This document shows positions 97 to 41,113 of a stretch of DNA of 41,329 nt, piece by piece. The position numbers and the translations under genes were made by a program. The stretch is from Chrysochromulina tobinii (lineage: Eukaryota), in NCBI GenBank assembly GCA_001275005.1, contig JWZX01001780.1:1-41329 (forward strand). The letters are read 5' to 3'. Below the pieces are notes generated by a model that made no database searches, was not told the DNA's origin, and saw nothing but the letters and a program-made list of their open reading frames with translations. Positions within the stretch are counted from its first letter, which is position 1, and each line of letters begins with the position of its first letter.

Positions 97-1877
97 ATGG
101 ATTTGCTACGGCCTTCCGCGAAGCGCAGTCGGTGGCTCTTCCTTCCGGCGGCGATGCTTGTCTGCTGCATGCTTGGCCACGTCACTGCCGAGCTGTCGTC
201 GCCGCAATGGAACGAGGGCTGCCTCTGCGAGCTCAAGCCGACGCCCGCGGCTTCATCCTCGAGCCTCGCAATGCACACGATCTTTGGCCAGCGCTACTTC
301 CGCAAGAATGGGCGCGTCTCGCGGTTCTGCCCGTGCTCTGTCGAGACTGTGCAGCAGCTCAACCAAGAGCTTATCGCGCCGCTCCTCTTCCCGCTGCTGA
401 ACAGCACGTACTTCCGCTACGTCAAGCTCTCGCTCGAGCGGACATGCCCATTCTGGGACGACGGGCACGGCATGTGCGCGCTGCGCGACTGCGCCGTCGA
501 AGCGTGCAGCGCGGACGAGGAGCGGCGGCTGGACCAGTGCGGTGAGGAGCTCGGCGACGACCAGCTCGGGGATGTGCAGCGCACGGACGCCGCGACGCTC
601 GGCGAGCAAGCTCCGTCCTGGGACCTTGCTGCTTCCCGGTGGACAGACCAGCTCGAAGTGGACAACGACGGCGGCGCCGAGTACGTGGATCTCGTGGACA
701 ACCCGGAGCAGTACACGGGGTACAGCGCCGCCGCGGGCGCCTCGCGCATCTGGGACGAGCTCCACACGCACAACTCGTTCGCTGAGCACGGCGCCGACGA
801 TGCGCGCCACGCGGCGCCGATGGCGGTGGAGCAGCGGCTATTCGCGCGGCTGCTCTCGGGTCTGCATGCATCGGTCTCGTCGCACATTGCGATCCACTAC
901 CTGCTCGACCGGCGCAACGGCACCTGGGGGCTCGAGCTCGACGAGTACGCTAGACGGTTAGGTGAGCACTTAATAGACGGTTACGCTAGTCGAGTACCGG
1001 TCGCCGGAGAGGCTGCATCCCTCGATGATGCTCGATTGCCTTTGATTGCCGCTGATGATGAGTGATCATGCTTGGTTAGGTAACCACCCGGAGAGGCTGC
1101 ACCATCTGCACCTGACGTACCTGACGGTCCTGCGGGCGCTCGAGCTGGCGGCGTCGCACCTGAGCGAGCGCTTTGCGTTCTCGACAGGCATGCCCCGAGA
1201 GGACGCGCGAGTCGCGCGCGAGGTGCGCGCCCTCCTCGCCTCCCGCCCCGAGTGGCCTCTCACGTTTGAGGAGCAACGCGCCTTCGTGGGCGTACGATGC
1301 GCCTCGACGCTGGTCGCCTCGGCCGAGCAGATGTCCAAATTAGGCAGCTCGGACGACACAAATACTGGATGCCATCACGGCGCCGAGGAGGAGCTGCTCG
1401 CTGCGCGCACGCAACTGCTCGGCGAGTACCGCTCGCGACTGCAGAACATCTCGAAGCTCATGGACTGTGTGGGGTGCGGCCGCTGCCGGCTGTGGGGAAA
1501 GCTGCAGGTGCACGGTCTCGCGACGGCGCTCTCGCCCAGCATACCAGTGCTCACCACGGCGCGTGCTCCCTGCTCCACAGGTGCACGGTCTCGCGACGGC
1601 GCTCCGTATCCTATACGCTCCCCACCGTCAGCTTGTGCTTCACTCGCTGCAGAGGCCCGACGTCGTCGCGCTGTTCAACCTCCTCGGCCGTCTTGCCCAC
1701 TCGGTCGAGGTGGCGCGCGTCGTCGTGCCGCTGCTCGGCGGGTCTCCGCATTCGAAGTGCTCGCCGCGCGGGTGCAAGGCGTCCGAGTGGATCTCGGGCG
1801 ATGGCGACGATGAGACCAGCACGGTCCACCCCGATGGGCTTTTTGGCGCCGCCATGGGCGCCTCTCTCTTTAGTTGA
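97..1877 (+). CDS. ERO1: ER oxidoreductin 1 (ERO1); exons 97-961, 1080-1507, 1581-1877
   Basis: Signal-peptide-like N-terminus; CPFW...CALRDC shuttle cysteines; YVDLVDNPEQYTGY; LLSGLHASVSSHI; C-terminal MDCVGCGRCRLWGKLQ (CxxCxxC). GT-AG introns restore RLGNHPERL and KLQVHGLATALRILY. Confidence 0.93.
962..1079 (+). other. Intron (118 nt), ERO1 intron 1; motif-A-like 3' half plus patchwork copies of flanking exon
   Basis: GTGAGC...TTAG; GGTTAGGT at both junctions (956-963, 1074-1081); GATTGCC/CTGATGA repeats. Confidence 0.85.
1508..1580 (+). mobile_element. Introner-like intron (73 nt), motif B, 27-nt perfect flanking duplication
   Basis: CAGGTGCACGGTCTCGCGACGGCGCTC at 1505-1531 and 1578-1604; internal AGTGCTCACCACGGCGC; ends CCACAG. 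Confidence 0.85.
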
Positions 1878-1950
1878 GGGGTGGCGCCGTCATGGGCGCC
1901 TCTCTCTTTAGTTGAGGGGTGGCTCCGTCATGGGCGCTTTAGTTGAGGGG
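1844..1950 (+). repeat. 38-bp tandem repeat (~2.7 copies) overlapping the ERO1 stop codon
   Basis: TGGCGCCGYCATGGGCGCCTCTCTCTTTAGTTGAGGGG starting at 1844, 1882 and 1920 (third copy internally deleted). Confidence 0.9.
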
Positions 1951-2531: not shown

Positions 2532-5348
<2,817 letters not shown>

Positions 5349-5566: not shown

Positions 5567-5908
5567 AATCACTCAGTTTGTAATCAGGGTATGTGAGGAA
5601 GGGGTGCAAATCCATATCCCTCCCCTACCCCCTCGTGGGTAAATCACTCAGTTTGTAATCAGGGTATGTGAGGAAGGGGTGCAAATCCAGATATTAATCC
5701 CTCCCCTTACCCCTACCCCCTCGTGGGTAAATCACTCAGTTTGTAATCAGGGTATGAGGAAGGGGTGCAAATCCAGATATTAATCCCTCCCCTACCCCCT
5801 CGTGGGTAAATCACTCAGTTTGTAATCAGGGTATGAGGAAGGGGTGCAAATCCAGATATTAATCGATATTATTAATCCCTCCCCTTACCGCCTACCCCCT
5901 TGGGTAAA
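5567..5908. repeat. Minisatellite, 4 copies of a ~75-100 bp unit
   Basis: AATCACTCAGTTTGTAATCAGGGTATG...GGAAGGGGTGCAAATCC...CCCCTCGTGGGTA starting at 5567, 5642, 5730, 5809. Confidence 0.93.
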
Positions 5909-8634: not shown

Positions 8635-11600
8635 TCATCCGCGGGGACTGCCGCTCGGCGGCCTCGGGATCGCATAATGACCATCACCGGTAGCCGCCGC
8701 CCGCACCAGCGACGCCGGCGGCCCACCGGCCACGCCGCTAGGCGGCGTCCAAACGCGCTCCATCTTATGTGGAATGAGCCCAGTGGCTACTTGGCCAGAG
8801 GGGCGCGCGGGCATGAGTGAGCCCGTGGAGCGCCGTCCCGGCGTGGGGGGACGACCGAGCGCGAGCGGCGTGTTGAGCGCATTCTCGAGCGGGGTACGCG
8901 GGCGTGCCGAGGAGGCGGGCGGCGCGAGCGGCGAGGTCGCGAGCGCGGACCTCGGCGCGAGGGGCGTCGTGGTGAGGGCGGCGATCTTGGAGTTTGGCAG
9001 AGGCGCAGGGTCTGCAAGCGTGTAGATCAGGCTGTTGAGCGCCGAGGGCGTCAGCGCGGCCGACCTTGCCGTCGAGCCCACGACGGCGCCACCTGCACCA
9101 CTTGCTGGCGACGTAAGAGGCAGCGGCAGCCTTCCCGAGGCATGGAGCTTCGACATGGGGTCGGTGAGCGTTGTGACCGTCGCGGCGCGAGGCGGTACGC
9201 GCGGCACGGAGGCGGAGGGGCGCAGCCCTCGTCGAGGTGTATCGCTTTCGGCCGCTCGCATGTGCCGCTCGAGCATCCCTGCATCGGGCAGCGAGGGCCT
9301 CGCGCTCCGCTCGCGCCTCCGCCGCCTCGCGCAGGCTCTTGTGGGACAACTCAATCGCAGCCTGCGTCGCGGCAGCCGCCTCGGCGGCCGCGGTCTTGGC
9401 GCGGAGACGCAGCTCGTCAGGGTCGATCCCGGCATGCCCACGCGCCGTCTCGAGCGCCTCGTCGGCGTTCTTGGCGCGCGCCTGCTCGAGATAGAGCTGC
9501 TCGCGAAGCTTGGCCTCGGTCTCTGCGGCCTGCGCGATCTCCCACCGAGCTCGCTGCAGCTCGGCACGGAGCTTGTCGGCCACGTCCTTGGACTGCTGTG
9601 CTTCGGCCACCTCTCGCTGCACGTACGCGTCGAGCTCGTTCATCTTGAGGTACGCTTCGCGCGCCGTCATCACGAGACTCCCCTCTTGCTTGCGCAGCGC
9701 AGCGACCGACTCGCTCGCCTGCGAGAGCGCCGTGCTGAGCAGTTGCGTCTTCTCCATCTCGTCGTCGAGCTTGTTCGAGATCGCATCGCGCTCCTCGAGC
9801 GCCTTGTCGACGGCCTTGCGGCTCGCCTGCTCGGTCGCGACGCCCAAGACGACGCGTCAGCTCGCCATCAGTTTCCATCAGGGCCACTCATAGGCAATCA
9901 GAGGTCATCAGCTCACCTGCTCGGTAGCGACGCTCTCGCAGCGCACGTCCTCGGCATCGGCCTCCGCGTCACGCAGAGCCTTTCTCCGCAGGCCGAGCGT
10001 AACCGTCAGGCGCGAACACTGCCAGCGCAGCCGCGCGCGTGGTACCGAGCGTTGCAAGCGGGCCGCCATATCCTCCGCCGAGTCTTGCAGCAGCGCGAGC
10101 GCGCGTACGGTGTCTGCATGCACGGCACGCGTCTCATCGAGCGCGGCGCTCTTCTCTGCCATGAGCCGCTGCAGCCTCAAGACTTCCTGCATCACATCCG
10201 TCAGCGTGGGCGCGCGCTCGGTGGTGAGCACTTGCATGCAAGGCAGGCCATCAGCATGCAATCAACGTACCTGCATCACATCCGTCAGCGTGAGCGCGCG
10301 CTCGAGCTCGTCGGCCCTCGCCTGAAGCGCCTTCAGCTCGGCTTGCAGTTTGGCCGTCGCCTTCTCGAGCTTCGCCTTCTCGAGCTTCATGAAGACATTC
10401 TCACTGGTGAGAGCGGTGTTCTTCACGAGAAGGTCCGCCTTCTCCTTGAGCGCCCGCTTGAGCAGCATGTCCAGATTCGTCTTCTTGTGCAGCTGGTCCT
10501 CGAGATCCAGCTGCACCTGCATCGCCTTCTCCTTCTCGCGCCGCACTCGCTCCCTGTAGATGATCTCGACGTGCTTCGCAGAGTATTCCGAGTCGGTTTC
10601 ACGCAGCATCGAACCCGCGGCCTCGTCGATGGCTTTGTTGTCCGCCGACGTGGCCGCGATCCCGAGCAGCTTGTACAGCCTCATCGCGAGCAGCCCTTGG
10701 CTGCTGCTGCTGCTCCCGCCACCGCCACCGCTATCCTTGTCCTTGCTGCCGCTGCTGCCGCTGCTGTCCTTGCCACCCTTGCCGCCACCCTTGCCGCCGC
10801 CCTTGAATGAGCCGCCCTTGAATGAGCCGTCCTTGGCGCCGCTAGGCTCATTCAGCTCGCTCAAGTCGAGGTTGAGCATGCCGATGACGCCCCCCGAAGG
10901 ACCACCCACGACGTTGGCGGGCAGCGGGTGCCCCGAGAGCACCTCGTACTCACCCACAAAGTCTCCTGGCTGCGCGGTCTTCTTGTGTGCAAAGCCCTGC
11001 TCGACCGAGCCGTGAAGCACGATGCCAAAGTGCCCAAGCGTATGCTCACGCAGCATGATGGTCTGCCCGGCATGGAACTGGAGGATACGCATCCCGTCGA
11101 AGAGCATGCTCACCTCTTCCGCCGACAGCCCACGCTTCTCGAGCGCTGCCCGCGCCTTGTCGAAACGCGACTGCTTAGCGTCGGTGGCGCCGGCCCCGGC
11201 GCCGGCGCCTCCTCGGAAGCTCCCGACTGCCATGGCGAGGCGCAGCACCGCCTCAGAGGTTCGCGGGATGATCTCCTGGATCTGCTCCATCTTGCGCACG
11301 GCGGCGCGTCCCATGGCGCGCACCAGCGTCGTCGCGGTCGTCGCCGACTTTTCGAACAGTCGAGGCATGCTCCCAAACTGCACAGCCGCAACGGTGCCGG
11401 CTGAGATGCCGATCATCGAGGCGCCGCGCTTGCCGCCGCGGAAGAAGGCCATTTCGCCGACTATTCGTCCAGGCGTCAGCGTGGCGAGCACGTGCGACCC
11501 GTGCCGCACCTCGAGCTGGCCGCCGAGCAGCAACCCAAACCACGAGGCGTCCTCGCCTTGCGTGACAATCTCCTGGCCCTCGGAGAAGTCGATAAAGTCC

Positions 11601-11713
11601 AGAAAGGGCAGCAGCTCGTCGAGCTGCGACTCCGTGAACCCACGGAAGTCCTGCGACACGCACTGGATGGCCGAGAGCGCCGCACGGTGCTCTTCGTGCA
11701 TTTCTCCTGGCAT
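8635..11713 (-). CDS. Tandem cyclic-nucleotide-binding domain + long coiled-coil protein; introns 10187-10270 and 9827-9916; apparent frameshift near 9277-9279
   Basis: FSEGQEIVTQGEDASWFGLLLGGQLEV...PGRIVGEMAFF...RGAS (cNMP domain); second degenerate copy (PGDFVGE); heptad-rich middle; Pro/Ser-rich tail. Confidence 0.78.
9827..9916 (-). mobile_element. Introner-like intron (90 nt), motif A, 23-nt flanking duplication at the 3' end
   Basis: GTGAGCTGATGACCTCTGATTGCC...; 9821-9843 vs 9911-9933 21/23 identical; splicing gives VATEQ|ASRK. Confidence 0.85.
10187..10270 (-). mobile_element. Introner-like intron (84 nt), motifs A+B, 35-nt flanking duplication at the 3' end
   Basis: GTACGTTGATTGCATGCTGATGGCCTGCCTTGCATGCAAGTGCTCACCAC followed by a copy of the upstream exon (10186-10220 vs 10270-10304, 1 mismatch). 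Confidence 0.88.
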
Positions 11714-11925: not shown

Positions 11926-14289
11926 ATGCCCTCGCAGTCCTCGCAGCCCGACCCGCCGCCGGCGGCGGCGCCCATGCGGCTCAACTTTGGTACGGGCAAC
12001 GCCTCGCCTCGCGCCGCCGCCCTGCTTCGCGTGCCGATGCTCTCGGGCTCCAACCAGCACGGCGCAGTCCGTGTCCACGAGACGAGCTCAAAGAAGAAGA
12101 AGCACCTCTCCGCGTGGGCTGTCTTCAAGATGCTGCCAAAGGAAGTGTACATCGTCCTGCTCATCGACCTGCTCAACTCGTACCGCTCTTTCGGCTTCCG
12201 CTCCGTCCAGTACATCTACCTCGTCAACGAGTTTGGCGTCTCCGATCTGGACGCAGGCAAATTGCTCGGCGTGCAGGCGTGGCTCATGGTGGTCTTCGGC
12301 ATGCTCGGTGCGATGCTCGTGGACTCGTGGGGCGTGCGCAACACCGCCATCACCGCCCTATCGGTCGCCGCCGTCAGCCGCGGCCTGCTCGCCTTTGGAC
12401 AGGAGCGTAACACCATGGTCTTCGCACTGATCGCGCTCGCGCCTTTCGGCGAGGCGGTTCTCTCGACCGGCATCTACACGGTGGCGCTTAAGAAGCTGAC
12501 GACGCCCACGACGCGCGGCCTCGCCTTCGGCGTCCAGTATGGCGTCTTCAACCTCGCGGGCGCCCTCGCCGATGTGGCCGCCGACACGTTGCGTAAGTCG
12601 GACATTATGCTGCCGCGCTGGCTGCCTTGGCTCGGCGGTACGTACTGGTCGGGCCTGCGCGTGCACGTGTTCTTCACGTGGCTGGCGGTGCTCGCCGCGC
12701 TCGCCGTCTCCGTCGCGTGCCTGTACGATACCGTCCTCGTCCCTCTCGATGAGGACGAGCGCGAGGCTGCCAAGGGCTCAGCCTCGCCCGGCCCTGTCAC
12801 TTCCCCACTGCTCGCTGAGCTTCGTCATTCCGCCAACGCGGCGGAGCGTGCTCGCGGGTACGCGGTGCGCATCGCGCCCAAGACGGCGGCCGCGCAGCCG
12901 CCGCCGCTGCCAACGGCCAGCGAAAGTGAGGACGAGGACGAGGACGATCAGGATGAGGCCTCCAACTACGAGGCTTTCGAAGAGCGCAGCAGCGCCGCCG
13001 CCAGCGGCGGCAGCAAGGGCGGCGGCGGCGGTGCCGGCGCCGCGCCTCAGCGACAGCGGCGGCGGCGGCGAGCGACGGCGCTCACGGCGGCGCGTCGGCT
13101 CGTCGCGTCATGGCTGCGCCTCGCCCAGGAGCACGCGAGCAGCGCGGGCAAGTCGTTGCTCGAGCTACTCGGGATGCGAGCCTTCTGGCGCGCGCTCTGG
13201 CTCTCGTGCTGCCTGCTCTTTGTGTCCAAGCAGGTGCTTGCCTGTGCTTGCCTGTGCTTGCCTGCGAGTACCTGTGATTACCTGTGGTTACCTATGGTTG
13301 CCTGTGATTGCCTGTGCTTCTTTGTGCCCACTGAGTGCCACTGATCGCCACTGATCGCCACCGATTGCACCCGAGCAGTGGGGAGATATGGACCAGCTGC
13401 TGCCGCCCTTTTTGGAGCGTAACTACGGTGAGGACGTGCCCATCTTCTTAATCCACTCGTTGAACATGTGGATTGGCATGTTCGGCCCGTCGCTCGCGGC
13501 CGCGCTCACCATGCACCTCGAGGCGTTCGAGGTGATGCTGCCTGGATTGTGGGTGATGGCGCTCTCGCCTGCGTGGCTCGCCTTCGACCCGAGCGTAGAA
13601 GCAGTCGTGTGCTGGATTGTCTTCCTCTCGCTCGGCGAAGTGCTCTGGTCGCCGCGCCTCTCCGCGTGGATCGCGTCGGTGCGTCTCTGATGGCCGATGC
13701 TGAGCTCTGATTGCGTCCCTCATCTGATTGTCGCTCTGAGTGCGCCTGATGACCTTCGATTGCCTCCCTCATCAGGTGGCGCCCGAAGGACGGGAGGGTG
13801 CCTTCCTCGCGCTGCTCTCAATGAAGAGCCTCATCACCACCATCCCGTCGACCGCGCTTAACGGCTGGATGAACGCGGTATTCATCGCCCAACTGCCCTA
13901 CCTGCCGTCTGATCGCTGCTGATGACCTCTGATTAACATTGATGACCTCTGATGGTCCCCCTCATCAGGTGCTCAACCCCAACTGCCCTAGCTGCCGCGA
14001 CGAGCGTACCGGCCACTTCTGCTCTGAGCTTGTGCGGCTCAACGGCACCTTTGACGGGTGCAGTCCTCCCGGGCTCGGGATCCATCACGCGTGCGTGGGC
14101 GACGAGCATAGCGGCTCGATGGTGGCTCGTCGGTACGCGGACGGGAGCGGTCTCGAATGCCCCTCGACTTGCCAGCAGTGCCCGGGATGGGAGGGCGACG
14201 CGAAGCTGATGTGGACGATCGTGCTGCTCTCTTCCATCTCAAGCCCTGTGATGGTCCAGCTCTCGCTCAAGTACCTGCGCGACAGCTGA
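11926..14289 (+). CDS. MFS transporter, POT/PTR-like; exons 11926-13233, 13379-13678, 13776-13877, 13969-14289
   Basis: Multiple TM helices; GAMLVDSWGVR (MFS motif-A-like); RGLAFGVQYGVFNLAGA; SLGEVLWSPRL..VAPEGREG; long acidic central loop. Confidence 0.85.
13234..13378 (+). other. Intron (145 nt) composed almost wholly of 10-mer tandem repeats
   Basis: CAG|GTGCTT...GAGCAG|TGG; CCTGTGCTTG-type units grading into CTGATCGCCA units; restores SKQWGDMDQ. Confidence 0.85.
13679..13775 (+). mobile_element. Introner-like intron (97 nt), motif A
   Basis: Degenerate CTGAT repeats; ends CTGATGACCTTCGATTGCCTCCCTCATCAG; restores IASVAPEG. No clear long duplication. Confidence 0.82.
13878..13968 (+). mobile_element. 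Introner-like intron (91 nt), motif A, ~29-nt degenerate flanking duplication
   Basis: Starts GTATTCATCGCCCAACTGCCCTACCTGCCG versus exon GTGCTCAACCCCAACTGCCCTAGCTGCCG; CTGATGACCT repeats; ends CCCCTCATCAG. Confidence 0.85.
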
Positions 14290-15642
14290 TCCTCATCTTG
14301 GAGATGTCATCTGGAAACTGAGCCGCCGACATGGGCACCCCGTCACCCGCCGCAGCGAGCGAGCGTGCACTTAAGCGTGCACACAAAAATATACTTGATC
14401 TACTGTATGGATCCATGACTAAAGTTCGTAGTTCGGTCTACGATCTTACTGAGCTGTGGTGAGTGCAGCCACCATGGCAGGAGCCACGTTTCGGCGCACT
14501 GCGGTCACGCCGCCGGTCCGCCCGGGCGGCCGGGGCGGCGCTGGAGGCCCGGACAACGACACCCCGCGGTTAGAGACGCACCGAGACGCCGACCCGCGGG
14601 AGAGCGAGAGCGAGCCCGAGCCGCGACCGCGAGAGAGAGCGCAGTAGAGCGAGCAGCCAGTGCTGAGAGGCTGAGAGCACGCAGCAGTCTCGCGCCTAAC
14701 TCGTTCTACGATTCGCCGCCACCCGACCTCCGACCGTCGCGCACGCGTCGGACGTTTTGAAACTCAGTGCCGAGAGCGGAGAGGCCTTGGAGTTGCACTT
14801 TTGCGCAGTCGTGTGGGGGATCTCTCGAAGACTACCGGCACGGCTCACAGGAACCGAGTCGAAGCCCTGCCGAACACACACAGGTCTGAGGTCACACAGG
14901 TCGTCTTTTACGTCAGCACGGCACCAACCCAGCATGTGCGGCTCAGCGGCAATTTAAATGAAGTGCGGTCCTTCACCGCGTCTCGCACGGCTGATTCCCA
15001 TGCACCTCCCAGGTTGTGGCGCTGGAGGCTGAGGTTGCTTCTTGGCCAGCACACCGTGCTGAAGTTGACCAGTCCAGAGAGGACGAGCACGCCGGAGACC
15101 CCAACTTCCATTGCCGACCAGATACAGCTCAGTCAACAGTCTGCGCGTCTGTGTGAATTCGAAGGCTGGCCAGCGCACTCTGGTGCTGCTGTGCGCTTGC
15201 GCGCTATCTTGACGAGTTTGACCTGGTGGACGGGCTTATACGCGCGCAGGCGATGTGCCGGCGCCAGCGGGCCGTGGTCGTGCCGTGGTAGGGCGCCAGC
15301 CGTAACAACTCGATCGCAGGTCCCGATTCGGCGGCGGCTCGGACGGCGCCCTTGATGCCGACGTTGAAATTATTCTTGTGGCATGAGCTGCGGAGAGCAT
15401 GAGAGACCCTCGTGAGAGCAGATGTGTCAGGACGAGGCTCTCACATCAAGAAAGACGAGCTACCGGTATCTTATTCTGTTCGTCACACACTTCTCCCTGT
15501 GGAACGCGTGCGCTCGCTTTCAGTAAATTTTTCAGCACACTATTGAAGACGCCTTTTTAAGGCAGCTTCCAAATTAGTAAATAACTTCACAGAACACAAA
15601 ACAGCGATCCACACATGTTCACAGTGCTCGCACAATCATTTT

Positions 15643-18210
15643 CTACAGCTCCAACTTCACAAATCCACTCCGGCCCTTCACCGCATCTAGCACCGCTTTT
15701 TCCCCTGCGTCTCCCATCATGTCATTGGCCGAGATGTCCAGTTCGGTCAGGACCGCATTGACCTTGAGCACCTCCGCGATCGCCTTGGCACCGTCAACGC
15801 CGATGTTGTTGTCTTTGAGCGACAGCGTGGTCAAGACCGCGTTGACCTTCAGCGCCTCCGCGATCGCGATGGCACCCTCATCCCCGATGGTCGAGTTGAA
15901 AAAGGAGTTGTACCCGAGGTTGAGGGTGGTCAAGACCGCGTTGACCTTCAGCGCCTCCGCGATCGCCTTGGCACCCTCGTCCCCGATGCTGTTGGCTCCG
16001 AGGTTGAGGGTGGTCATCACCACGTTGACCTTCAGCGCCTCCGCGATCGCGATGGCACCCTGTGGACCGATTTGGTTGTCCCAGAGGCTCAGCTCGGTCA
16101 GGACGGCGCTGAACTTAATCAGCTCGGCAAGCACGATGCCCTCGGTCGACCCTAGGCTTGACCCTAGGCAGTTCAAGCTCAGGTTGAGCTCTGTCAGCTT
16201 GTCCTCGCGCAGCTCCTTGATCGGCACCCCAGAGAGCACCTTGAGCGACAAGCTGCCCAATGCTGCCGCCGCAAGCTGCTGCGCCGCCTCTCCGACAATG
16301 TTGCGGTTGTTGGCGACAGATAGATTTTTCATCACCGCGTTGACCTTCAGCGCCTCCGCGATTGCGATGGCTCCCGCACCCCCGATCCTGTTGCCGTACA
16401 ACTCCAGCTTGGTCAGGACCGCGTTGACCTTCAGCGCCTCCGCGATCGCCTTGGCACCGTCGTCGCCGATGGAGTTGGCCCAGAGGTCCACTGAGGTCAA
16501 TACCGCGTTGACCTTCAGCGCCTCCGCGATCGCCTTGGCACCCTCAACCCCGATGGAGTTGTACCCGAGGTTGAGGGTGGTCAAGACCGCGTTGACCTTC
16601 AGCGCCTCCGCGATCGCCTTGGCACCATCGTCACCGATGGAGTTGAACCGGAGGTCCACCGAGGTCAACCCCGCCATCAACTTCAGGTCCGACACGATCA
16701 GGATTGTGTCGGCGTCTTCGAGGCCCTCGTCCAAGAAGTTGGCCTCCGTCTGGTCGCGCGTCATGCCCGAGAGCATGATACCCTTCTCCGCGCCGATCTT
16801 GGCAAGCATCGTGGCTGACTCAATGTTGAGCCCCTTCTTGAGCACATCGACCTTGGCGCCACAGTCCAGGAGCGCCCGCGCCACCTCTTGCTTGTTCTCC
16901 CTGATCGCATAGTCCAGAGCGCTCACCCCATGATCGTCCCGGCAGGTAACGTCCGCCCCGCGCTCGAGGAGCATTGTGACGACTGCAGCATGCCCTCCGT
17001 GCGCCGCGGCCATGAGCGCAGTCATGCCGCGGTCGTTGGCATGGTCGATAACCTCCGGCGTGTTGTCGAGGAGCGCTCGAAGCTCGTCGATCCGCCCAAA
17101 CTGCGCCGCTTGCACGTGCGGTACAGCCTCGAGCATGCCTCCCACTGACGGCTCCGCGGTCGGGAAGGGCCACAGCCGAATCTCGCTGTCGGCGAGATTC
17201 CGCGCACAGAGGCGCAAGGCCTCCTCCCGCAAGGCCTCCTTTCGCTTGGACGCGATCACCACCGCGAGCTTCGGCGCCTCGGCCTCCTCATCCGTCTGCG
17301 CCGCCTCGCTCGCTACCGGCTGCTGCCCGAGCTTGACTAGCCTCGCCTTCTCCTTGCGCTTCAGACGGCGCTTTGCGCTCTTGCTCAGACCCTCCGTCGA
17401 GGGCGTGCCACCGCCGGCGCCACCCGCCGCCGCCGCCGCCGCCGCCGTGCGCTTCCCAAACGCGCGCTGCAACACCCCGGCGACCTGGCGCCATCGGAGC
17501 CGCCGATGCCATTGGTTCACGACGGTTCTCGGCGGAAAGTATCCACCGTGCACCGTGCGGCAGTGAGGGTGCGCATCGCGGCCGCAGGGCTGAAAGCACA
17601 GCCAGCAGAACGCCACGTCGCAGCTGCTGCACTTCATCGCGATGCAACCGTCTGGATCCGGGTCGCAGAACACCTCGCAAGATGGGCAGCCGAGGTTCAG
17701 GGCCTCGTGGAGCTCTGTCTGTATCGACTCGGGGGTGCACGGCACTTTTCCCCCGCCCGGCGTCTCCGTCGTCTCCGGCGTCTCCGACGTCTCCGGCGTC
17801 TCCATCGTCTCGAGGTAGAGCCGCAGCGCATCTCCAAAGAGGAGGGGCTCGACCATGCTGCGGCCAAAGGGGAACGCCTGCTGGTGGGCGCCGAGGCAGT
17901 CGAGGGCGCCATTTGAGCTGCGCAACTTTGCCGAGCCAGCGAGGCTGCAGATGTACCTTTGAAGGCATGCCGAGCAGATTAGGTGGCCCTCGGGGCAGGC
18001 GATTCCGCGGAGCGTGCTGACCTCCTCGAGGCAGATGAGGCACAGTGCTCGCGTGGCGGCCGCTCCATCGTGCGACAGCGTGACCTCCTCTCCGTCTCGC
18101 GCTCGCACGCAGATTTGCTCATCATCACGTGTGACCTTCATCGCCGCGGGCGCCTCTTCCTGCTCCTCGGCCGGCGATCCAGCGACGATCGTCTTGCCCG
18201 AGAGGCTCAT
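15643..18210 (-). CDS. RING + IBR/RING2-like + ankyrin + RI-type LRR (NLRC3-like repeats) protein, putative E3 ligase
   Basis: CLIC..CPEGHLICSAC RING; CPSC..DGCIAMKCSSCDVAFCWLC..H.H; ankyrin GMTALMAAAHGGH and GVSALDYA; ~10 LRRs of LxxNxIGxxGAxAIAEALKVNAVLT. Confidence 0.88.
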   Translation of the reverse strand: MSLSGKTIVAGSPAEEQEEAPAAMKVTRDDEQICVRARDGEEVTLSHDGAAATRALCLICLEEVSTLRGIACPEGHLICSACLQRYICSLAGSAKLRSSNGALDCLGAHQQAFPFGRSMVEPLLFGDALRLYLETMETPETSETPETTETPGGGKVPCTPESIQTELHEALNLGCPSCEVFCDPDPDGCIAMKCSSCDVAFCWLCFQPCGRDAHPHCRTVHGGYFPPRTVVNQWHRRLRWRQVAGVLQRAFGKRTAAAAAAAGGAGGGTPSTEGLSKSAKRRLKRKEKARLVKLGQQPVASEAAQTDEEAEAPKLAVVIASKRKEALREEALRLCARNLADSEIRLWPFPTAEPSVGGMLEAVPHVQAAQFGRIDELRALLDNTPEVIDHANDRGMTALMAAAHGGHAAVVTMLLERGADVTCRDDHGVSALDYAIRENKQEVARALLDCGAKVDVLKKGLNIESATMLAKIGAEKGIMLSGMTRDQTEANFLDEGLEDADTILIVSDLKLMAGLTSVDLRFNSIGDDGAKAIAEALKVNAVLTTLNLGYNSIGVEGAKAIAEALKVNAVLTSVDLWANSIGDDGAKAIAEALKVNAVLTKLELYGNRIGGAGAIAIAEALKVNAVMKNLSVANNRNIVGEAAQQLAAAALGSLSLKVLSGVPIKELREDKLTELNLSLNCLGSSLGSTEGIVLAELIKFSAVLTELSLWDNQIGPQGAIAIAEALKVNVVMTTLNLGANSIGDEGAKAIAEALKVNAVLTTLNLGYNSFFNSTIGDEGAIAIAEALKVNAVLTTLSLKDNNIGVDGAKAIAEVLKVNAVLTELDISANDMMGDAGEKAVLDAVKGRSGFVKLEL
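15700..16680 (-). repeat. Near-identical ~84-bp (28-aa) LRR-coding repeats in two blocks
   Basis: Recurring ACCGCGTTGACCTTCAGCGCCTCCGCGATCGC on the + strand. Confidence 0.9.
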
Positions 18211-18297
18211 CGTGCGCACACACTCCTACAGGCCGCGCGCTCTCGCGCTCTTTCGCACGTGGTGAGCGGCCGGCGCTGCAAAGTGTGAACAATTGGC

Positions 18298-27009: not shown

Positions 27010-29444
27010 ATGATGTGTCTCGTGTGTGCACCGGCTCCCAACGGTGTTTTTGCACGAGGTCAGTACGGGTTCCGGGAACTTTGTCTCAAGTGCTACGGGT
27101 ACATGGACGACCGGCTGGGTGTGACCCGCTCCCGGCAAACCGCCCGCGCGGTCATCGCTCGCGTCAATCCGGCCAAGGGCATGACGTTCGACGCCTCAAT
27201 GTGCAAGTACCGGGCCGTGCCGGCGGTGGCCGCTGCGCTCGGCTATACGGTGTTGACTGCGGAGGATGAGCGGGATCCCAATGCGCCGCCGGGCTGGAAC
27301 CTCTTCTGGACAGACCTTTCGGTCAGCCACCAGCGCGTTGCTGCGCTGCTCCCGCTGCAGAAAGTCAATCATTTCGCGGACATGACGACCTTGTGCAACA
27401 AGGCAACGTGCGCCAGCGTACTCAAGCGCGTGAGCCGCTCCTTCCCGCTCGAGTACAACTTCTACCCGCGGAGCTGGAAGCTGCCCAAGGAGGCGGCGGC
27501 GCTCCGCAAGCTCATGCTCAGCCCTGAGGCGCCGCGCGTGCTCATTGTCAAGCCCAACCGCGGTTGTCAGGGCGTCGACATCTCCATCTGCTGCACGAAC
27601 GACGAGCTCGACACAGCGCGTCAGGAGATGGGCCAGCAGTGCGTGGCGCAGGAGTACGTGGACAAGCCGCTGCTGCTCGACGGGTACAAGTTCGACCTGC
27701 GCATCTACGTGTGCGTCACGTGCTGCTCGCCCCTGCGCGTGCACTTGTATCGCGAGGGCATCGCGCGCCTGTGCACCGAAAAGTACGAGGCGCCCTCGGC
27801 GGGAGGACCGGCCATGATGGCGCCGCCGGCTGCCGCTGCGAGCCAATCTCCGCGTAGCTCGGCCAGTCGGCCAATGTCGGCGATCTCGGCCGCCAGGGCG
27901 GCGGGCAGGGTGGCTGCCAAGGCGACTGGTAAGGCGGACGCCAAGGGCAGTGCCAGCAGCAGCAGCGGCAGTGGCGCGAGCAACAGCAGAAATGAAAGCG
28001 GCTCGTCAACGGTCGCCCAGGCGGGGATGGAGGGAGTGTCCCCGTCAGGCAGCACCGCCGCGGGTGCCCCGGGAGCCGCAGCGTCGGATGGCGCGAGCTC
28101 GAGCGGCGCAGGCGTGCGCGCGCCCAAGACGGCGTCCAAGGTGACGGCGGCGGCGGCGGCGACTGACTGGCGCTACCGGCATCTGACGAACTATGCGATC
28201 AACAAGACGCATCCCGACTTCGTTGTGGGTGGTGAGGACGGCTCCTCGAAGCGGCTGCTCACCGAGCTGCTCGACACGCTCCGCCGCGACGGCTTCGACG
28301 TGGACATGCTCTGGGGGGAAGTACAGCAGCTGGTGGTCAAGACGCTGATCGCCGTGCAGCCGCACATAGCGCATTCGTATACGAGCTGTCGGCCCGCGAC
28401 GGACACGCACCCGTTCTCGTGCTTCGAGCTCCTGGGCCTCGACCTGCTCATTGATGAGAGTGGGCGCCCGTGGCTGCTCGAGGTGAACCACTCGCCCTCG
28501 CTCGAGCGCTGTGTGCTGATGACCGATGATGACCACTGATGACCAATGATTGCTTCCCTCATCAGGTGAACCACTCGCCCTCGCTCGCGACCGACACGCC
28601 CCTCGACCGCGAGCTCAAATCTCGTCTGCTCTCGGATACGATTCGACTCTGCTCCTTCTCGGCCGCCGAGGCGCGCTTGGTAGCACGCGCGGCGGAGCGG
28701 CGCGACGCGGCGCCCGCCGCGATCCCGAAGCTGCGCCCCATCGCCGAGCCGGGCTCCTCGGAGCGCTCACGGCGGCTCAGTGCTGACGGCGGCATCTCGA
28801 CGCTGCGTGCACGCCTAGAGGTCGCGCGTGAGCGTTCGAGGAGCGCTACGAGCGCTACGAGCGGCTTCAGCTCGGTCGCGGCGTCCTTTGGCTTCGGCGC
28901 GCGCGGGCTGGAAACACGACTCGGGATGCCCGGCGTCAAGCAGCAGCTCGTGCAGCAAGGCCTCGCGGAGCGCCGCCAGCAAGCAGAGCTGACCCAGGCG
29001 GAGCTGCTACGGTTGCGGGAAGAATATGAGGCGGCCAATTCGAGCTCATTCGAGCTCGTCTTCCCGGCGCCACATGAGAAGCTCCAGTCTCTCTATGAGA
29101 TGCTGCTCAACGCGTCGCTGCGCGCGTACATCGAGGAGTCCCCCGTCAACTTCAACGGCGGTGCGCGCGTGCCCATCCCGCCGCTGCTGCCACCCGACGC
29201 TGGTGCCGACTGGTGGTCGATGATCAAGCTCGGGCGCGTGGGCGAGCGCATCCTGCAGATGGGCAGTGACGCACCCAGCGCCATCGCGCGCTCGGCACAG
29301 CGCGACGCGGTCGCTTCGCGTACGGCGCGTCCGGGGGGGGAGCGCGAGCACTGCCGACCGACGGGCGCGCCGCCGGCCGACGAGGAGGACGGCGTCGACG
29401 GCGACGACGCCTCCGCTGGCCACTGTGTGACCTCGGAGATGTGA
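27010..29444 (+). CDS. Tubulin-tyrosine-ligase-like polyglutamylase (TTLL6/7/11/13-like); intron 28483-28565
   Basis: WNLFWTD, QKVNHF, FYPRSW, IVKPNRGCQG, QEYVDKPLLLDGYKFDLRIYV, HLTNYAINK, CFELLGLD, PWLLEVNHSPSL..DTPLD. Confidence 0.92.
28483..28565 (+). mobile_element. Introner-like intron (83 nt), motif A, 24-nt perfect flanking duplication
   Basis: AGGTGAACCACTCGCCCTCGCTCG at 28481-28504 and 28564-28587; TGATGACC(A/G) 10-mers; ends GATTGCTTCCCTCATCAG. Confidence 0.9.
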
Positions 29445-29983
29445 TCTCGGAGTGATCTCGGCCAGCAGGCGTCGTGCTGGGCGATTCGGAGCTGCCACCG
29501 TCCATGATGGTTGATGTACGGTAGAGGCGGCTGCTCCATGTATTCGTGGACGGAGGGAAATGCAGGATCAACTGGGCGGCATCGAAGATATGGGGCCCGG
29601 CCATTCAAAGCTGAGAGCTGTATTGCATCGTTGGCAATCGTTCGAGACGTTCGATCGGATCGTTGATCGTCGTCACGGGAAGCTCGGTGCGTGCCCGGGT
29701 ACCGACTTATCTTCACCACTTCAGTAACTTTAGTCTGTACATCCGCTAAGTACCGTATCCCACAATCGATCAAGAACCGCCCGTGGCCGTGCCGACTTAC
29801 ACATGCGCGATGCTCGAACCAAATTCGATTGTTCATCCGCGCCCCCCTCGCGGCCGGCCGGACTTTATTCGGTTGGCGTCGACAATGATCGGACTTGCCG
29901 TGGCCCCGTGGCTGCACAGGACGCCGAATGGACCACGTAATTACGTTCTACCGCTCCACCGGCGCACCGCCGACCCAACGGCA

Positions 29984-32900
29984 TTATGGATTCGCCGCCT
30001 GGGCGCTCAGCCACTGGGCCAGTGACTGGGCGCCAAGCCGATACCTCGACCCCGTCTCCGTCCACACGCACGAGGCAGGGTAGTCACGACGCTCGGGCGG
30101 CACAAAGCTCGTAGTCACCCACTTGCCGTCACCCACGCCCGGCTTGCCGTACACGCGCCCTCGGAAGCGACCGTCCGCAGTCAGGCTCCACTCCTCGAGC
30201 AGAGGGGCAGCGCTCGGGGCAGCGCTCGGAGGACGCACCACCTCGGAAGACGATGAGGCAACGGAGGTGGGTCCCGCGCCAGTCGCAGGCACGGCAGCCG
30301 TGACACCAGCCCTCGTGGCAGCGGAGGCCGATGCGCTGGCTGACGCGGCGGCCGGAGCAGCGCGCAGGGCCGCCTTACCCTTGGGTGGTGGTGCGCCGAG
30401 CGGTGGAGGCGCCGTGTCGAGCGGTGGAGGCGCCATGCCGCGCGGTGGAGGCGCCATTGACAGCTGCGGCGCCATTCGTGGCGCCTTGGAGGCAGGAGCC
30501 GCATCCACGGCTCCCGTCACGGCGCCACTCGTAGCACCTCCATCCCTGGCGGCAGCCACGGCAACGCGCTTCTTCCCAGCGCTCGGGGCAGGTGTGCCTT
30601 CGCCCGGCGCGACGCCACCAGGCGGTAGCGACGGTGGTCCGGTTCCAGCACTCGCACCGGAGTCGAGACAGCACCAACGGCCGTACTTGATCGGAACGGG
30701 TACGTGCGGAGCGGGTGGAGGCGCAGAGTCCGCCCTCGGTGCGCTGAGGTGGGCACTCGCGCCGTAGTGAGCACTTGCATGCGAGCCGGCCCTGGGTGCG
30801 CCGGCGGAGGCCTCGTTGCTCGCGTCGGTGTCGGCTATGCGTTTGTCTCGGCGTGAGGGCAGGCGGGCAATGAGCGGGGCGGGTGCGACGAGTGGCGCCG
30901 AACCCGCCGACCCTGCCGAGCGGTCGACACACTGCGGACCATCTCCAAGCTTGCTGACCATTCCCATGCCTGCCGTTACAGCCGCCGATGAAGATGCCAC
31001 ACTCTTCTTGCCCGCGGCCGCCGTCACCGTCGCCGCCGGCGGCGGCGGCCTTGCTGCGCCCACAGCGGCCGCGCCCGCGCCCTTGGGTGCGCCGCGGCCG
31101 GAGGTGGCTGTAGGGGCGGCGGGCGGCTCGACGAAGGTTGGGCTCTCCGGCTGCGGCGGCCGCGGTCGCTTGCTTGAGAGCTCGCCGTCGAAGGAGCCGT
31201 CTAATGAGAGTCCATCGACAGAAGCGTGATCGACCTCGTGACGAGATTGTCGAGATTGACGAGACTGATCGGCCTCGCGACGACGGCGCTCGGACGCACG
31301 GCGCTCCGCCTCGCGCGGCGGCGGCGGCTGCGGCGGCGGCGGCGGCGGCTGCAGCTGCGGCGGCGGCTGCTGTCTCTTCTCCACTCGCTTCGCCTTGCGC
31401 GCCGAGTCCTTCTCGGCCTCGACCTCGCGCTTGAGCCGCTGCGCCTCGGCTCGCTCCTTGTCGCGCGCTTGCTGCTGCCGGCGCTGCTGCATCTGCTGGA
31501 ACTTGGCCCAAAAGTCGGGGTCGTCGAGTGGCAACTCCTCTCCGTCTCCAACGGCCGCCCGAAACGAGGCGCGTGCAAACAGCGACGAGCCGCCGCTGCC
31601 ACCTCCGAGGCCGCCGCCGCCGCTGCCGATCACGCCACCGCCGCCCATACCGGCCGAAGAGCCTTTAGAGGTCGATGTGGCAGCATCGGCCGCTGCTTCC
31701 CTCTCTGCGGCATCGAGCATCTCGTCAAGGTCTTCCTCTCCGTACCCCGGGTCGTCCGCGTCCGAGCGGAGCAATCCATAGGCGCCCCAGCGCAACAGGT
31801 CCTCGATTTCGGCGCGGCTCAGCCCGCTGCGCTCGCTTGCGCCCCGGGAGAGCGGACGCGCCGCGCCGCCGCCGCCTTCAGCGGGCACGGCGACAAGGTC
31901 GGCATCCACCAGGTCGCCGTCCACCAGGTCGGCATCCACCTTCGCATCCGCTACCTCCGCATCGTCGGCCTCGCCGCCCTCGCCGTCGGCGCTCTCGCCC
32001 ATCAAATCGAGCTTCGGGGGCCGACGCGGGTGCGTCTCGGCCTTCGCCGTTGCAGCTGGCCCGACGTCAACAAGCACCTCGTGCGCCGCGCCGAAATCTC
32101 CCCCTTGGAGCAGCGCGTGGTCAAGGGAGAGCTTCTTCATGGCCCGATCGAGCATGCGCTCCTCGTACGTGCCACGCGTCACGAGCCGGTAGACTTGCAC
32201 AGGCCGCTCCTGCCCAATGCGGTGCGCGCGCGCCTGGCCCTGCATATCGCCTTGTGGGTTCCAATCGGAGTCGAAGATGATGACTGTGTCGGCCGCCGTC
32301 AGGTTGATGCCCTGTCCGCCCGCGCGCGTCGTGAGCAAGAAGACGAAGCAGGCCGCGTCGGATTGGAACCGATCGATGGCCCTCTGGCGCGCGTCCCCCT
32401 TGACGGTGCCGTCGACGCGCTCGTAGTCGCCGAGCACCGGTGCACGCAGCTCAAGGTAATCTTCGAGTAAGTCGAGCATGATCGCAAACTGCGAGAAGAG
32501 GAGCACCTTGTGCCCGCGCGCCTTGAGGCGTGGCAACAGCTTGTCGAGCAGAACCATCTTGCCTGAGGAGTCGACGAGGGTCCGTACACCCTGCTCCACC
32601 GTCGCGCTCAGCCTCGATCGACGCTCCTCGAGACCCAAGTTGAGCGCCGAGTTGAGCGCCGGGTTGAGCGCCGAGTTGAGCGCCGAGTTGAGCGCCAAGT
32701 TGAGCGCCGAGTTGAGCGCCGGGTTGAGCGCCGGGTTGAGCGCCTCGCTCGCCGACGCCGCAGTCGAGGCTCGAGCGATGCGGGGTCGGTTGCCTGCCGT
32801 GGCCTTGGCATCAAGCTTGACGCTCGCCGGCAACGCGGGCGCGGGCGTGGGCGCAGGGGCGACAGGTGCCGGCGGGGGTAGCTGGCAGAGCTGCTCGGCG

Positions 32901-39318: not shown

Positions 39319-40110
39319 AAGTTGACACTAAGTTGACACGGGGGCGGGGTCTCTGACTCTCTGTCGAGTGCCGAGTGCCTCGGCCCCGCGAGCCGTGCAG
39401 CGTGTTCGGTACGGACGTACGGTAGACGGTGTACGGCTAGTACGGGCGCCCCGCGCGCACCGCACACGACAATCAGCACCGGGATACGATACAGCTTACT
39501 AGCAATCACCGGTCCGCGCGTGGCGTGTCGCGGGCGTGAACTGATCGCGGGCGTGATCGCCAGCCGTGTATTCCCCGCCGAGCCGCTGAATCACCGCTCG
39601 CTCGCTACCGCGCGCCGCCAGATGAAGCGAAGTGAAATTGGTACATTAACCATCATGGTTCGACGAGTCCCCGTTATACCGGTCGATCGCGGGACGCCGT
39701 AATCATGGTGATCGGAACGATCGTCCGTCCGGGTATTCGTCGGCGCGGCGAAGCGTGGACGCCAGGACGGTCCGCGGCGTCCACCGGCGAGTTCGCACGG
39801 AGCTGGGCCGGGTAAATCGTTCGATGAGCGCGTCACCGCGTCTATTTTTACGCGCGCCCGACCGCACTACGAGTACTAATTTCCGCGCGCCTCGCCCGGC
39901 CGCACGTGTTACTCGAAAGCGATCGTACACCAACGAGAGACCGCTGCCCATTTAATAGCCCGCCCGCGCCGCACGCGCACGACTGTGTGCGCGGCGAGTT
40001 GGCGTCATGAAGCGCATGCTGCAGCTCCCGTTCGCACGGGGATCCCGCTCCGCGGCTAAAGCGATGCGTGGCCCGTGTGCTCGTGCCCTATCCACCGGTG
40101 CCGTTAGGCC

Positions 40111-40157
40111 AGGTCATCTGTGAAGGTCATCTGTGAAGGTCATCTGTGAAGGGCATC
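40111..40157. repeat. 13-bp tandem repeat (~3.5 copies)
   Basis: AGGTCATCTGTGA repeated, downstream of the bromodomain gene. Confidence 0.8.
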
Positions 40158-40332
40158 CGCTTCACAGGCGCAAGGACCTGCGGCGGACCGCTACCTGGAC
40201 CTCTGCTCCATCCCCAGCTCCTCCTGGGACGTCTTCGGGGCGCCGACTTAGGCGCTTACCGGCGCTCGTGGCAGCTCCTGGGCTTCCGCTGCCCCGCCCT
40301 GCTTTGCTCATACGCCGTCGATTCGTCGCACC

Positions 40333-41113
40333 TCATGGCGCACCCCCTGTGAGTGAGATGGTGGCTGCAAGCAGCGAGCGCACGTGCATGTCGAGCCGGA
40401 TGAAGGTCTTGGGCTCGAGCGCGTCCACGTCAATCTTGATTTCGCGCCCGTCGGCGCACGTCTCGACCGCATGCGACGAGAACGCCTCGGCGAGCCGCCC
40501 GATCTGCACTCGCTGGTCGTCGCTCAGCTTGACGACGTTGTCAAGAAGCTGGTGGCGCATCTGCGGCGTGATGAAGAAGGGCGCTCCGCTCTGCACAGGC
40601 ACGTTGCCCACACCACGAATGGACAGAGGCGGCGCGCGCGTCACGCCGGACGGCTTGCGTGCGAGGCCAGGAGGACGAGATTCGGCCTCCGAGAACTTCT
40701 TGGACGCAATCGAGCGCATCTCGTCAATGTACTTTTTGATCCACGAGTTCGGGCCGTTGTAGGTGAGTGCGTTCTGCCAGACGAGGTCGACGTCCGCGCG
40801 CAGCGCCGCCACAGTCTCGTACTCTAGGCTCTCGAGCTTTCGAAGGATGGTGCTCAAATCCATCGGATGCTCGATCACCTGTGGGGAAGGGGGGGGCGCC
40901 GTGGTGAGCACTTGCATGCAGGGCCGGTGGAGCTCAAATCCATCGGATGCTCGATCACCTCGAGGTAGTTCCACAACTGCAATTTCTGCCAGTCGACCGG
41001 GTCCTTGAAGTATTTGGCCGACGGCTGCTGACGCAAGAGCCTGATCACCTTGTGGTACCTGCTCGCTACCTCCTCGCGCCCCTCGAGGTACCTGGCACCG
41101 CCGCCGCCGCCGC

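What the first reader, a model, noticed from the sequence alone, without database searches (positions are those of the whole stretch)
9821..10304. Two mirror-image solutions: the insert supplies either the acceptor or the donor
Seen: in six introns (ERO1 i2, GMD, MFS i3, TTLL, CHD, BET) the intron starts with a copy of the downstream exon, whose GT acts as donor, and the insert ends in ...CCCTCATCAG or ...CCACAG. In both cNMP introns the intron starts with GTACG/GTGAG plus insert and ends in a copy of the upstream exon, whose CAG is the acceptor. At 9915 a C/T difference (exon GCGAGC vs intron GTGAGC) gives the GT. Motifs are always in the gene's sense orientation, on both strands. Inference: different sub-segments of one template are captured and survive when the flank completes the missing site. 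The strict orientation implies either selection or an RNA-based step.
Basis: partly seen in the sequence, partly recalled or inferred. Interest (0 to 1): 0.8.

Follow-up and report, generated by a model that had tools for sequence, protein, structure and literature searches.

The report
Introns that copy themselves into exons
In a freshwater alga, many short introns consist of a duplicated piece of the gene's own exon plus a piece shared with other introns, several are missing from other alleles, and they likely arise when DNA repair copies part of an existing, often nearby, intron into a new spot without any transposon.

Summary
The mirror pattern is real and general. Of 129 single copies of one intron motif (126 in related metagenome contigs, 3 in the window), acceptor-carrying pieces go with a downstream-exon copy (50 against 1) and donor-carrying pieces with an upstream-exon copy (7 against 0; p=3e-8). 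Duplications are 13-52 nt. ORF calls from other alleles read cleanly through both cNMP sites, ERO1 i2, TTLL and MFS i2, so these introns are presence/absence variants. Corrections: the donor at 9915 is an exon copy (GC in 9 of 13 alleles, GT in 4), not insert; there is no single template; orientation is strongly but not strictly sense (one antisense copy survives in frame). New: two introns carry exon scraps of a neighbour 2-2.5 kb away, joined at 5-nt microhomologies, which names their donors. Best reading: microhomology-guided template switching during repair copies part of an existing intron and duplicates the target; selection keeps spliceable products (0.55). No inverted ends, fixed duplication length or poly(A), so not a classical introner; a published screen lists C. 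tobinii with 0 families. No RNA-seq check was possible. The scan noted this family once before on another piece of this genome.

The parts
10187..10270 (-). cNMP gene intron 1 (84 nt, in-frame stop): donor-carrying type
   Evidence: absent from P0007, P0010, P0001, P0013-15; same structure in allele L114
10221..10270 (-). Insert of intron 1: donor cassette plus family-2 core with branch-point-like CTCAC
   Evidence: branch-point role inferred from consensus
10187..10220 (-). 34-nt copy of the upstream exon end (10271-10304); supplies the CAG acceptor
9827..9916 (-). cNMP gene intron 2 (90 nt, in-frame stop): both splice sites from the exon duplication; acceptor could be 9830
   Evidence: absent from P0001, P0013-15
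9911..9916 (-). 6-nt copy of the downstream exon start; donor is GC in 9 and GT in 4 of 13 informative alleles
9844..9910 (-). 67-nt insert of family-1 units (CTGATGACC/GATTGCC type), no splice site of its own
9827..9843 (-). 17-nt copy of the upstream exon end (9917-9933); supplies the acceptor
8635..11713 (-). Host gene: cyclic-nucleotide-binding domain plus coiled coil, about 960 aa
   Evidence: PF00027 on P0001
1508..1580 (+). ERO1 intron 2: acceptor-carrying type, 24-nt downstream copy, family 2
   Evidence: absent from P0030 and P0022
962..1079 (+). ERO1 intron 1: older compound intron with scraps of both flanking exons; a shorter allele exists
4688..4786 (+). GMD intron: acceptor-carrying type, 17-nt downstream copy, family 1
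   Evidence: no empty allele among those listed
13234..13378 (+). MFS intron 1: 10-nt repeat array, only a 5-nt shared end; content varies between alleles
13679..13775 (+). MFS intron 2: family-1 cassette, no long duplication
   Evidence: absent from P0161, which keeps intron 3
13878..13968 (+). MFS intron 3: acceptor-carrying type with a decayed 30-nt downstream copy
   Evidence: other alleles are closer to the exon
28483..28565 (+). TTLL intron: acceptor-carrying type, 22-nt downstream copy, family 1
   Evidence: absent from P0098 and P0091
33611..33698 (-). CHD/SNF2 intron: acceptor-carrying type, 21-nt downstream copy; shares a 13-nt variant with the TTLL intron found nowhere else in the held DNA
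40879..40958 (-). BET intron: acceptor-carrying type, 31-nt downstream copy, family 2
30744..30801 (-). Family-2 copy with a short flanking repeat, read in frame in the CHD ORF (19 codons); probably not spliced
   Evidence: present in 9 of 9 proteins that cover it, several without the AG

Best explanation
These introns consist of a 13-52 nt duplication of the host exon plus a piece shared with other introns, and they likely arise when a repair or replication polymerase switches template at a short microhomology, copies part of an existing intron, and returns to the gene upstream of where it left. Shown: the anatomy, the side-to-cassette rule, clean empty sites in other alleles, donors identified 2-2.5 kb away in two cases, later tandem expansion of the [exon copy + cassette] unit. 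Inferred: the DNA template, the polymerase (a Pol-theta-like or break-induced switch), and selection. A piece that runs to the acceptor survives when the duplicated exon begins with GT or GC; a piece that starts at the donor survives when the duplicated exon ends in AG; a middle piece survives when the duplication holds AG|GY or keeps the frame. Each new acceptor-type intron is followed by GT and each donor-type intron is preceded by AG, so it would offer the microhomology that makes the next copy scarless; the two types then breed true, as their diagnostic base suggests. Sense bias would come from direct copying within a gene plus selection for branch point and splice sites.
For: Side rule: 50:1 against 0:7, p=2.7e-8; independent family-1 acceptors 40 of 87 with a downstream copy (random AG 29 of 300), donor cassettes 18 of 35 with an upstream copy (random GT 24 of 300). 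Empty sites. A further intron about 36 nt upstream of cNMP i1 in 1 of 15 listed cluster members (P0005, inferred from protein). Tracers: the L108 intron holds about 20 nt of the exon beside the L106 intron and the whole compound intron, joined at a 5-nt match; the L123 intron holds 7 nt from L122's exon copy and junction after a 5-nt match. Private upstream sequence of 8 nt or more is shared by 11 of 261 same-contig pairs against 8 of 25,772 others; best match is local for 21.8 of 159 copies against 2.3 expected. Antisense copy L031:6347 lies in the same ORF as sense introns and its best match is a copy on the other strand. Direct joins overlap by 2 nt or more in 8 of 11 against 26% in the null (p=0.008). 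No inverted ends or poly(A) in 69 inserts. Templated insertions with patchwork segments are the known Pol-theta signature (PMC12426944, passages).
Against: The 11 local pairs collapse to three clusters. 86% of copies have no local best match (flanks were only 0.3-4 kb), and donor cassettes are nearly identical across many unrelated contigs, which needs long-range copying or a master source. Family-1 cassettes show no significant local similarity (p=0.15). 39 of 50 acceptor-type copies have a 1-46 nt spacer whose source is mostly not found, so the microhomology test rests on 11 joins, one a 10-nt outlier. Among in-frame copies without an acceptor cassette, 10 are sense and 1 antisense (p=0.03 against 60%), which an RNA template would also give. 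Pol-theta insertions are generally under 25 bp; these inserts are mostly 34-69 nt. No case proves that bases outside the donor intron were carried, so an excised-intron RNA is not excluded. Local similarity could partly be gene conversion. Empty sites are read from proteins, not DNA, and could be precise losses.
Confidence: 0.55

Rival explanations
1. RNA-templated version: the piece is copied from pre-mRNA, an excised intron or its cDNA (same transcript, or in trans by a retroelement enzyme) at a staggered nick, which duplicates the target.
For: Strong sense bias, 102 against 4 confident calls, also among in-frame survivors (10:1); pieces end exactly at the acceptor or start exactly at the donor; the L106-to-L108 copy runs from donor to acceptor; variable duplication length is typical of target-primed reverse transcription (recalled).
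Against: Antisense in-frame copy matched to the opposite strand of its own gene; TTLL (+) and CHD (-) share a private variant across strands; tandem duplications across existing junctions give the same units (L080, L076, L128); donor-type pieces are cut at the 3' end, the reverse of retro-truncation; no poly(A) in 69 inserts.
Confidence: 0.25
2. A non-autonomous mobile element (introner) with two subfamilies and sloppy ends, moved by an unknown transposase that makes variable duplications, as Replitron-1 does.
For: Near-identical 30-nt donor cassettes in many contigs; two sub-lineages; Replitron-1 gives variable duplications and ends derived from the parent copy's flank, and one Replitron protein is reported in C. 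tobinii (PMC10288648, passages); introner families without inverted ends occur in a marine Chrysochromulina MAG.
Against: No fixed ends, no inverted or direct terminal repeat, duplications of 13-52 nt against 2-8 nt in the introner passages read, middle-only pieces, and donors that are neighbours carrying host exon scraps.
Confidence: 0.1
3. Remodelling, not gain: whole introns were there first; tandem duplication across a junction or partial conversion by spliced cDNA replaced one half with exon sequence, and empty alleles are precise losses; similarity between neighbours is gene conversion.
For: Units duplicated across existing junctions are seen (L080, L076, L128; L017/L077 and L052/L130); MFS i2 is a whole cassette that is also missing in one allele.
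Against: A sister lineage lacks all cNMP introns; one intron is private to 1 of 15 members; tracer fragments moved to new positions; in-frame copies sit where no junction is; no listed allele shows a donor cassette at the start of an intron that is acceptor-type in the window.
Confidence: 0.08
4. Assembly artefact.
For: Repeats of this size can be mis-assembled; the host gene has a one-base frameshift near 9280.
Against: The same structure is in independent assemblies (L114, 99.7% identical) and in dozens of ORF calls with allelic variation.
Confidence: 0.02

Closest known systems
Intron gain by repair of staggered double-strand breaks in Daphnia pulex (PMC4202315, passages)
   Same: Presence/absence introns, a repeat of the adjacent exon end at the far end of the new intron, later internal duplications
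   Different: Daphnia repeats are 4-12 bp and the source of most inserts is unknown; here repeats are 13-52 nt, the insert is a ready splice cassette, and donors can be named
Introners that carry one splice site and take the other from the target-site duplication (Symbiodinium, Polarella, Aureococcus; marine Chrysochromulina MAG family 5)
   Same: Shared intron sequence at unrelated sites; one site carried, one co-opted; both directions known
   Different: Those have a fixed unit and short fixed duplications (4 or 8 nt in the passages read), often inverted ends; here no fixed ends, long variable duplications, and both mirror forms come from one sequence family. Homology to the MAG families was not testable
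Intron gain by tandem genomic duplication of an AGGT-bearing exon segment (PMC3443670, passages)
   Same: cNMP i2 and the 24 of 52 acceptor-side introns whose upstream exon ends in AG use duplicated proto-splice sites
   Different: Here a foreign piece with a branch-point-like motif and pyrimidine tract lies between the copies, so 13-52 nt of duplication is enough
Intron transposition by reverse splicing (Oikopleura, fungal ILEs, Micromonas R-loop model)
   Same: New introns homologous to existing introns, sense orientation
   Different: Reverse splicing inserts a whole intron cleanly; it gives no long exon duplication, no half introns and no antisense copy
Pol-theta templated insertions (PMC12426944, passages) and Replitron-1 insertions (PMC10288648)
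   Same: Microhomology joins, patchwork inserts from nearby sequence; variable duplications and parent-derived ends in Replitron-1
   Different: Not described as an intron source in the passages read; inserts here are longer than the usual under-25-bp Pol-theta class; no enzyme was identified here

Membership tests
Introner (transposon-derived intron family) | Repeated intron sequence at unrelated loci | tested here: met
Introner (transposon-derived intron family) | Similarity extends to both exon-intron boundaries (criterion of PMC12130899) | tested here: not met
   One end is a local exon copy in most copies; C. tobinii is listed with 0 families in that paper's dataset
Introner (transposon-derived intron family) | Recent insertion, empty sites in relatives | tested here: met
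   Read-through ORFs at 5 window sites and at L034; inferred from proteins, DNA not seen
DNA-transposon (MITE) introner | Terminal inverted repeats | tested here: not met
   0-2 nt in 68 of 69 inserts, 4 nt in one; folding no better than shuffles in 5 of 5 introns
DNA-transposon (MITE) introner | Fixed short target-site duplication | tested here: not met
   13-52 nt, median 26, in 95 copies; repeats scoring under 12 were not counted
SINE / non-LTR retrocopy | Fixed 3' end with poly(A) or simple tail, 5' truncation | tested here: not met
   No poly(A)-like tail in 69 inserts; donor-type copies keep the 5' end and lose the 3' end
SINE / non-LTR retrocopy | Derived from a known structural RNA | tested here: not met
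   No Rfam match at gathering score in 6 of 141 loci searched
SINE / non-LTR retrocopy | Partner autonomous element | not testable with these tools
   No genome held
Repair-templated insertion (Pol-theta type) | Microhomology at joins | tested here: inconclusive
   8 of 11 direct joins with 2 nt or more (p=0.008), 39 of 50 joins not scorable; 5-nt matches in both tracer cases
Repair-templated insertion (Pol-theta type) | Insert copied from nearby sequence, either strand | tested here: met
   true for a minority of copies, donors at 2-2.5 kb
Repair-templated insertion (Pol-theta type) | Depends on Pol theta | not testable with these tools
   Needs genetics
Spliceosomal intron | Removed from mRNA at the stated sites | not testable with these tools
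   No reads obtained; indirect: in-frame stops or frameshifts, exact read-through alleles, public models agree at ERO1 i2, CHD, cNMP i1

The most novel reading that the evidence does not exclude
Freshwater Chrysochromulina is gaining introns now through an element-free chain reaction: DNA repair copies halves of existing introns into exons, each new intron is pre-fitted with the microhomology that makes the next copy scarless, and two mirror lineages breed true. It would be a mass source of introns that needs no transposon or reverse splicing, is invisible to current introner screens, and leaves donor-to-recipient pedigrees in the sequence.
Probability: 0.45. Interest if true: 0.88.

Novelty: new variant of a known kind. 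Interest (0 to 1): 0.76.

Why it matters
Where new intron sequence comes from is an open question: repair-based gains (Daphnia) lack a source, and bursts of gain are credited to transposons. Here the source can be read off: pieces of existing introns, sometimes the neighbour, with the old host's exon scrap still attached. The gains are polymorphic in a culturable alga, so mechanism, rate and selection can be tested directly. It also shows a blind spot in introner screens and explains broken gene models in this genus.

Tried and rejected
Whole-genome classification: no genome held; record behind L114 not held. RNA-seq check: no runs were obtained, so splice sites are indirect. Rfam on 6 loci: nothing at gathering score. 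Folding of 5 introns: z from -1.1 to +0.5. Viral contigs: 2 matches to the core, one host-like and one chance; 0 to the family-1 end; prokaryote genomes 0. First orientation pass gave 105 of 128 sense, but most of the 23 'antisense' calls were noise from neighbouring introns; redone with both flanks. Test for drift of the exon copy toward a better donor: no enrichment of mismatches at +1 to +6 in 50 copies, although single cases exist (cNMP i2). Local similarity for family 1: not significant. Empty allele for the antisense copy: none among 3 proteins that cover it; two hold a doubled unit. 4 of 10 and 1 of 10 ORF look-ups were not in the collection. In one search, copies in tandem arrays, near-duplicates and copies with under 130 nt of flank were dropped before counting; allelic or overlapping loci were dropped.

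Full report
Setting. The window is GC-rich eukaryotic DNA. Its proteins fall in 90%-identity clusters with Chrysochromulina tobinii and C. parva entries, so it is a freshwater Chrysochromulina haptophyte. Pfam confirms the gene labels cNMP-binding, ERO1, GDP-mannose dehydratase, MFS, TTL, SNF2 and bromodomain. No genome was held and no sequencing reads were obtained, so I used metagenome contigs and protein clusters.

The observation. Frame tests and exact alignment give eleven motif-bearing introns. Six start with a copy of the downstream exon (17-31 nt; the MFS i3 copy is decayed). cNMP i1 (10270-10187, minus) starts with an insert-borne donor and ends in a 34-nt copy of the upstream exon. 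Of 13 informative allele ORFs that run into this intron, 9 end A-S-stop (GC donor, exact exon copy) and 4 end V-S-stop (GT). The T at 9915 is therefore most simply a later change to a GC donor that already worked. In ERO1 i2, TTLL, CHD and BET the upstream exon ends in AG, so the repeat includes AG|GT and the insert's real contribution is the branch-point-like motif and pyrimidine tract (the motif lies 22-34 nt before the acceptor in 50 of 52 acceptor-side copies; its role is inferred).

The mirror rule outside the window. Of 129 single copies with enough flank (3 of them from the window), 95 have a flanking direct repeat (random positions 16 of 150), 13-52 nt long, median 26. Removing insert plus one copy restores the site through a GT-AG intron in 63 and a GC-AG intron in 6 of the 95, against 10 on the opposite strand. 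Acceptor-cassette-only copies (88): 50 downstream, 1 upstream, 3 spanning, 16 without a gap-free solution, 18 without a long repeat. Donor-cassette copies (19): 7 upstream, 0 downstream, 4 unresolved, 8 without. Neither cassette (22): mixed. Fisher p=2.7e-8 on the resolved cells; the acceptor class is partly circular because both definitions need the AG, the donor class is not. The second family, not selected by the scan, agrees: 40 of 87 acceptors have a downstream copy (9 of these are repeats of the cassette itself; random AG 29 of 300), and 18 of 35 donor cassettes have an upstream copy, 16 ending in AG (random GT 24 of 300). 29 of 39 family-1 acceptors without a visible repeat are still followed by GT, against 5% after CAG in the window, as expected if many are decayed products of the same process.

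They are recent and variable. Unspliced ORF calls from other alleles (inferred to be DNA calls because their siblings stop inside introns; the DNA was not seen) read exactly through the sites. cNMP cluster, 15 of 80 members listed: 8 stop in intron 1; P0007 and P0010 lack intron 1 but stop in intron 2; four 954-958-aa proteins of a sister lineage on 5-12 kb contigs lack both; P0005 has its own acceptor-type intron about 36 nt upstream, with a GC start, the family-2 cassette read as protein and the exon then shifted by one base. ERO1 i2 is absent from P0030, which begins inside intron 1, and from P0022, present in 12; the TTLL intron is absent from P0098 (31.8-kb contig) and P0091, present in 12. 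MFS i2 is absent from P0161, which keeps intron 3, present in 6; the L034 intron is absent from three proteins. GMD, CHD, BET and MFS i1 showed no empty allele among those listed. Units also expand in tandem between alleles.

The template is a population of introns, often close by. Whole donor-to-acceptor copies exist and align with both halves, but donor-type and acceptor-type copies differ at one core base (A in 12 of 19 against 2 of 88, p=2.6e-10 on A/G). Two cases name a donor. An intron in L108 is a copy of the compound intron in L106, 2 kb away, and carries about 20 nt of the exon next to the L106 intron; the two exon ends share 5 nt. The L123 intron carries 7 nt from L122's exon copy and junction, 2.5 kb away, after a 5-nt match. 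Overall, 11 of 261 same-contig pairs share 8 nt or more of private upstream sequence against 8 of 25,772 other pairs, though the 11 are three clusters; the best match is local for 21.8 of 159 copies against 2.3 expected; family-2 copies are more alike within contigs (p=0.0005) but family-1 cassettes are not (p=0.15). In the window the TTLL and CHD introns, 5 kb apart on opposite strands, share a 13-nt variant found nowhere else in about 0.5 Mb held. Against a purely local story, donor cassettes are almost identical across unrelated contigs.

Orientation. A codon model (85 of 90 window test pieces on the right strand; training not fully independent) sense and 12 antisense of the 141 of 198 copies whose flanks agree, 102 against 4 with margins. 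By eye most antisense calls are noise; L031:6347 is clear, L057 and L134 are probable. L031:6347 adds 23 codons in frame, between 19-nt repeats, to the same 826-codon ORF that runs into a sense intron; its best match among 229 copies is on the other strand of that gene. The window holds a sense counterpart read in frame in CHD (30744-30801). In-frame copies without an acceptor cassette are 10 sense to 1 antisense, so selection on splicing is not the whole cause; direct copying within a gene, or an RNA template, would add the rest.

Mechanism. Shown: anatomy, side rule, empty sites, named donors, inverted copies, tandem expansion. Inferred: a strand leaves the exon after copying segment X, anneals by a few bases to an existing intron, copies to or from a splice site, and re-anneals at the start of X. 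Direct joins overlap by 2 nt or more in 8 of 11 (null 26%, p=0.008); 39 of 50 have spacers that in the tracer cases are remnants of the donor's own exon copy. I put 0.55 on a DNA template switch of the Pol-theta or break-induced kind, 0.25 on an RNA template, 0.10 on an unrecognised mobile element, 0.08 on remodelling of older introns, 0.02 on artefact.

Comparison. It works like Daphnia break-repair gains (PMC4202315, passages) and like introners that take one splice site from the duplication (bioRxiv 2022.06.06.494994, passages and part 2 of 5; bioRxiv 2020.10.14.339549, part 1 of 4), but fails the element tests: no inverted ends, no tail, no fixed length. The 2025 introner survey requires similarity up to both intron boundaries (PMC12130899, passages) and lists C. 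tobinii with 0 families (supplement row; files 13-14 not searched). The C. tobin genome paper mentions introns once, as about one per gene (PMC4580454). Reviews read as passages: PMC3443670, PMC12426944, PMC10288648, PMC4540971, PMC4122922. Paper searches (listings only, open-access library) showed no description of this family or of this route; subscription papers were not searched.

Verdict. A real, active and unusual route of intron gain; new variant of repair-associated gain, with a fair chance of being a distinct self-propagating mechanism. Interest 0.76.

Noticed in passing
window about 9277-9283 (-): One extra base shifts the cNMP gene's frame relative to P0001; assembly error or real frameshift.
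   Followed up: partly
window 2532-4703 (+): One 724-codon ORF joins a glycosyltransferase-61-like stretch to the N-terminal half of GDP-mannose dehydratase; a fusion or hidden introns.
   Followed up: partly
window 31230-31285 (-): A third short repeat family (ATCTCG-type units) between short direct repeats, read in frame in CHD and present in 7 of 7 proteins that cover it.
   Followed up: partly
window 29425-29470 (+): The TTLL stop region differs between alleles (at least four endings) around an ATCTCGG-type repeat.
   Followed up: partly
window 40108-40160 (-): Three 13-nt units resembling family 1 downstream of the BET stop, in gene sense.
   Followed up: no
window 5567-5900: Intergenic tandem array of 75-88 nt units, near-identical, less GC-rich.
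   Followed up: no
window 1850-1950 (+): Tandem duplications of 31-38 nt over the ERO1 stop codon, without a cassette.
   Followed up: no
window 15640-18212 (-): Gene with 84-nt repeats (leucine-rich-repeat look, recalled) and a paralogue in L069.
   Followed up: no
window 37061-39319 (+): Long ORF whose end looks like an ADP-ribosyltransferase domain (recalled motif, not tested).
   Followed up: no
L001:301-350: A host-type family-2 intron in a 4.5-kb IMG/VR contig, probably algal DNA filed as viral.
   Followed up: partly
P0047, P0086, P0182, P0023: Public gene models stop inside or mis-splice several of these introns (GMD, MFS i1, cNMP exon 2, ERO1 i1), so annotation of this genus likely undercounts introns.
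   Followed up: partly
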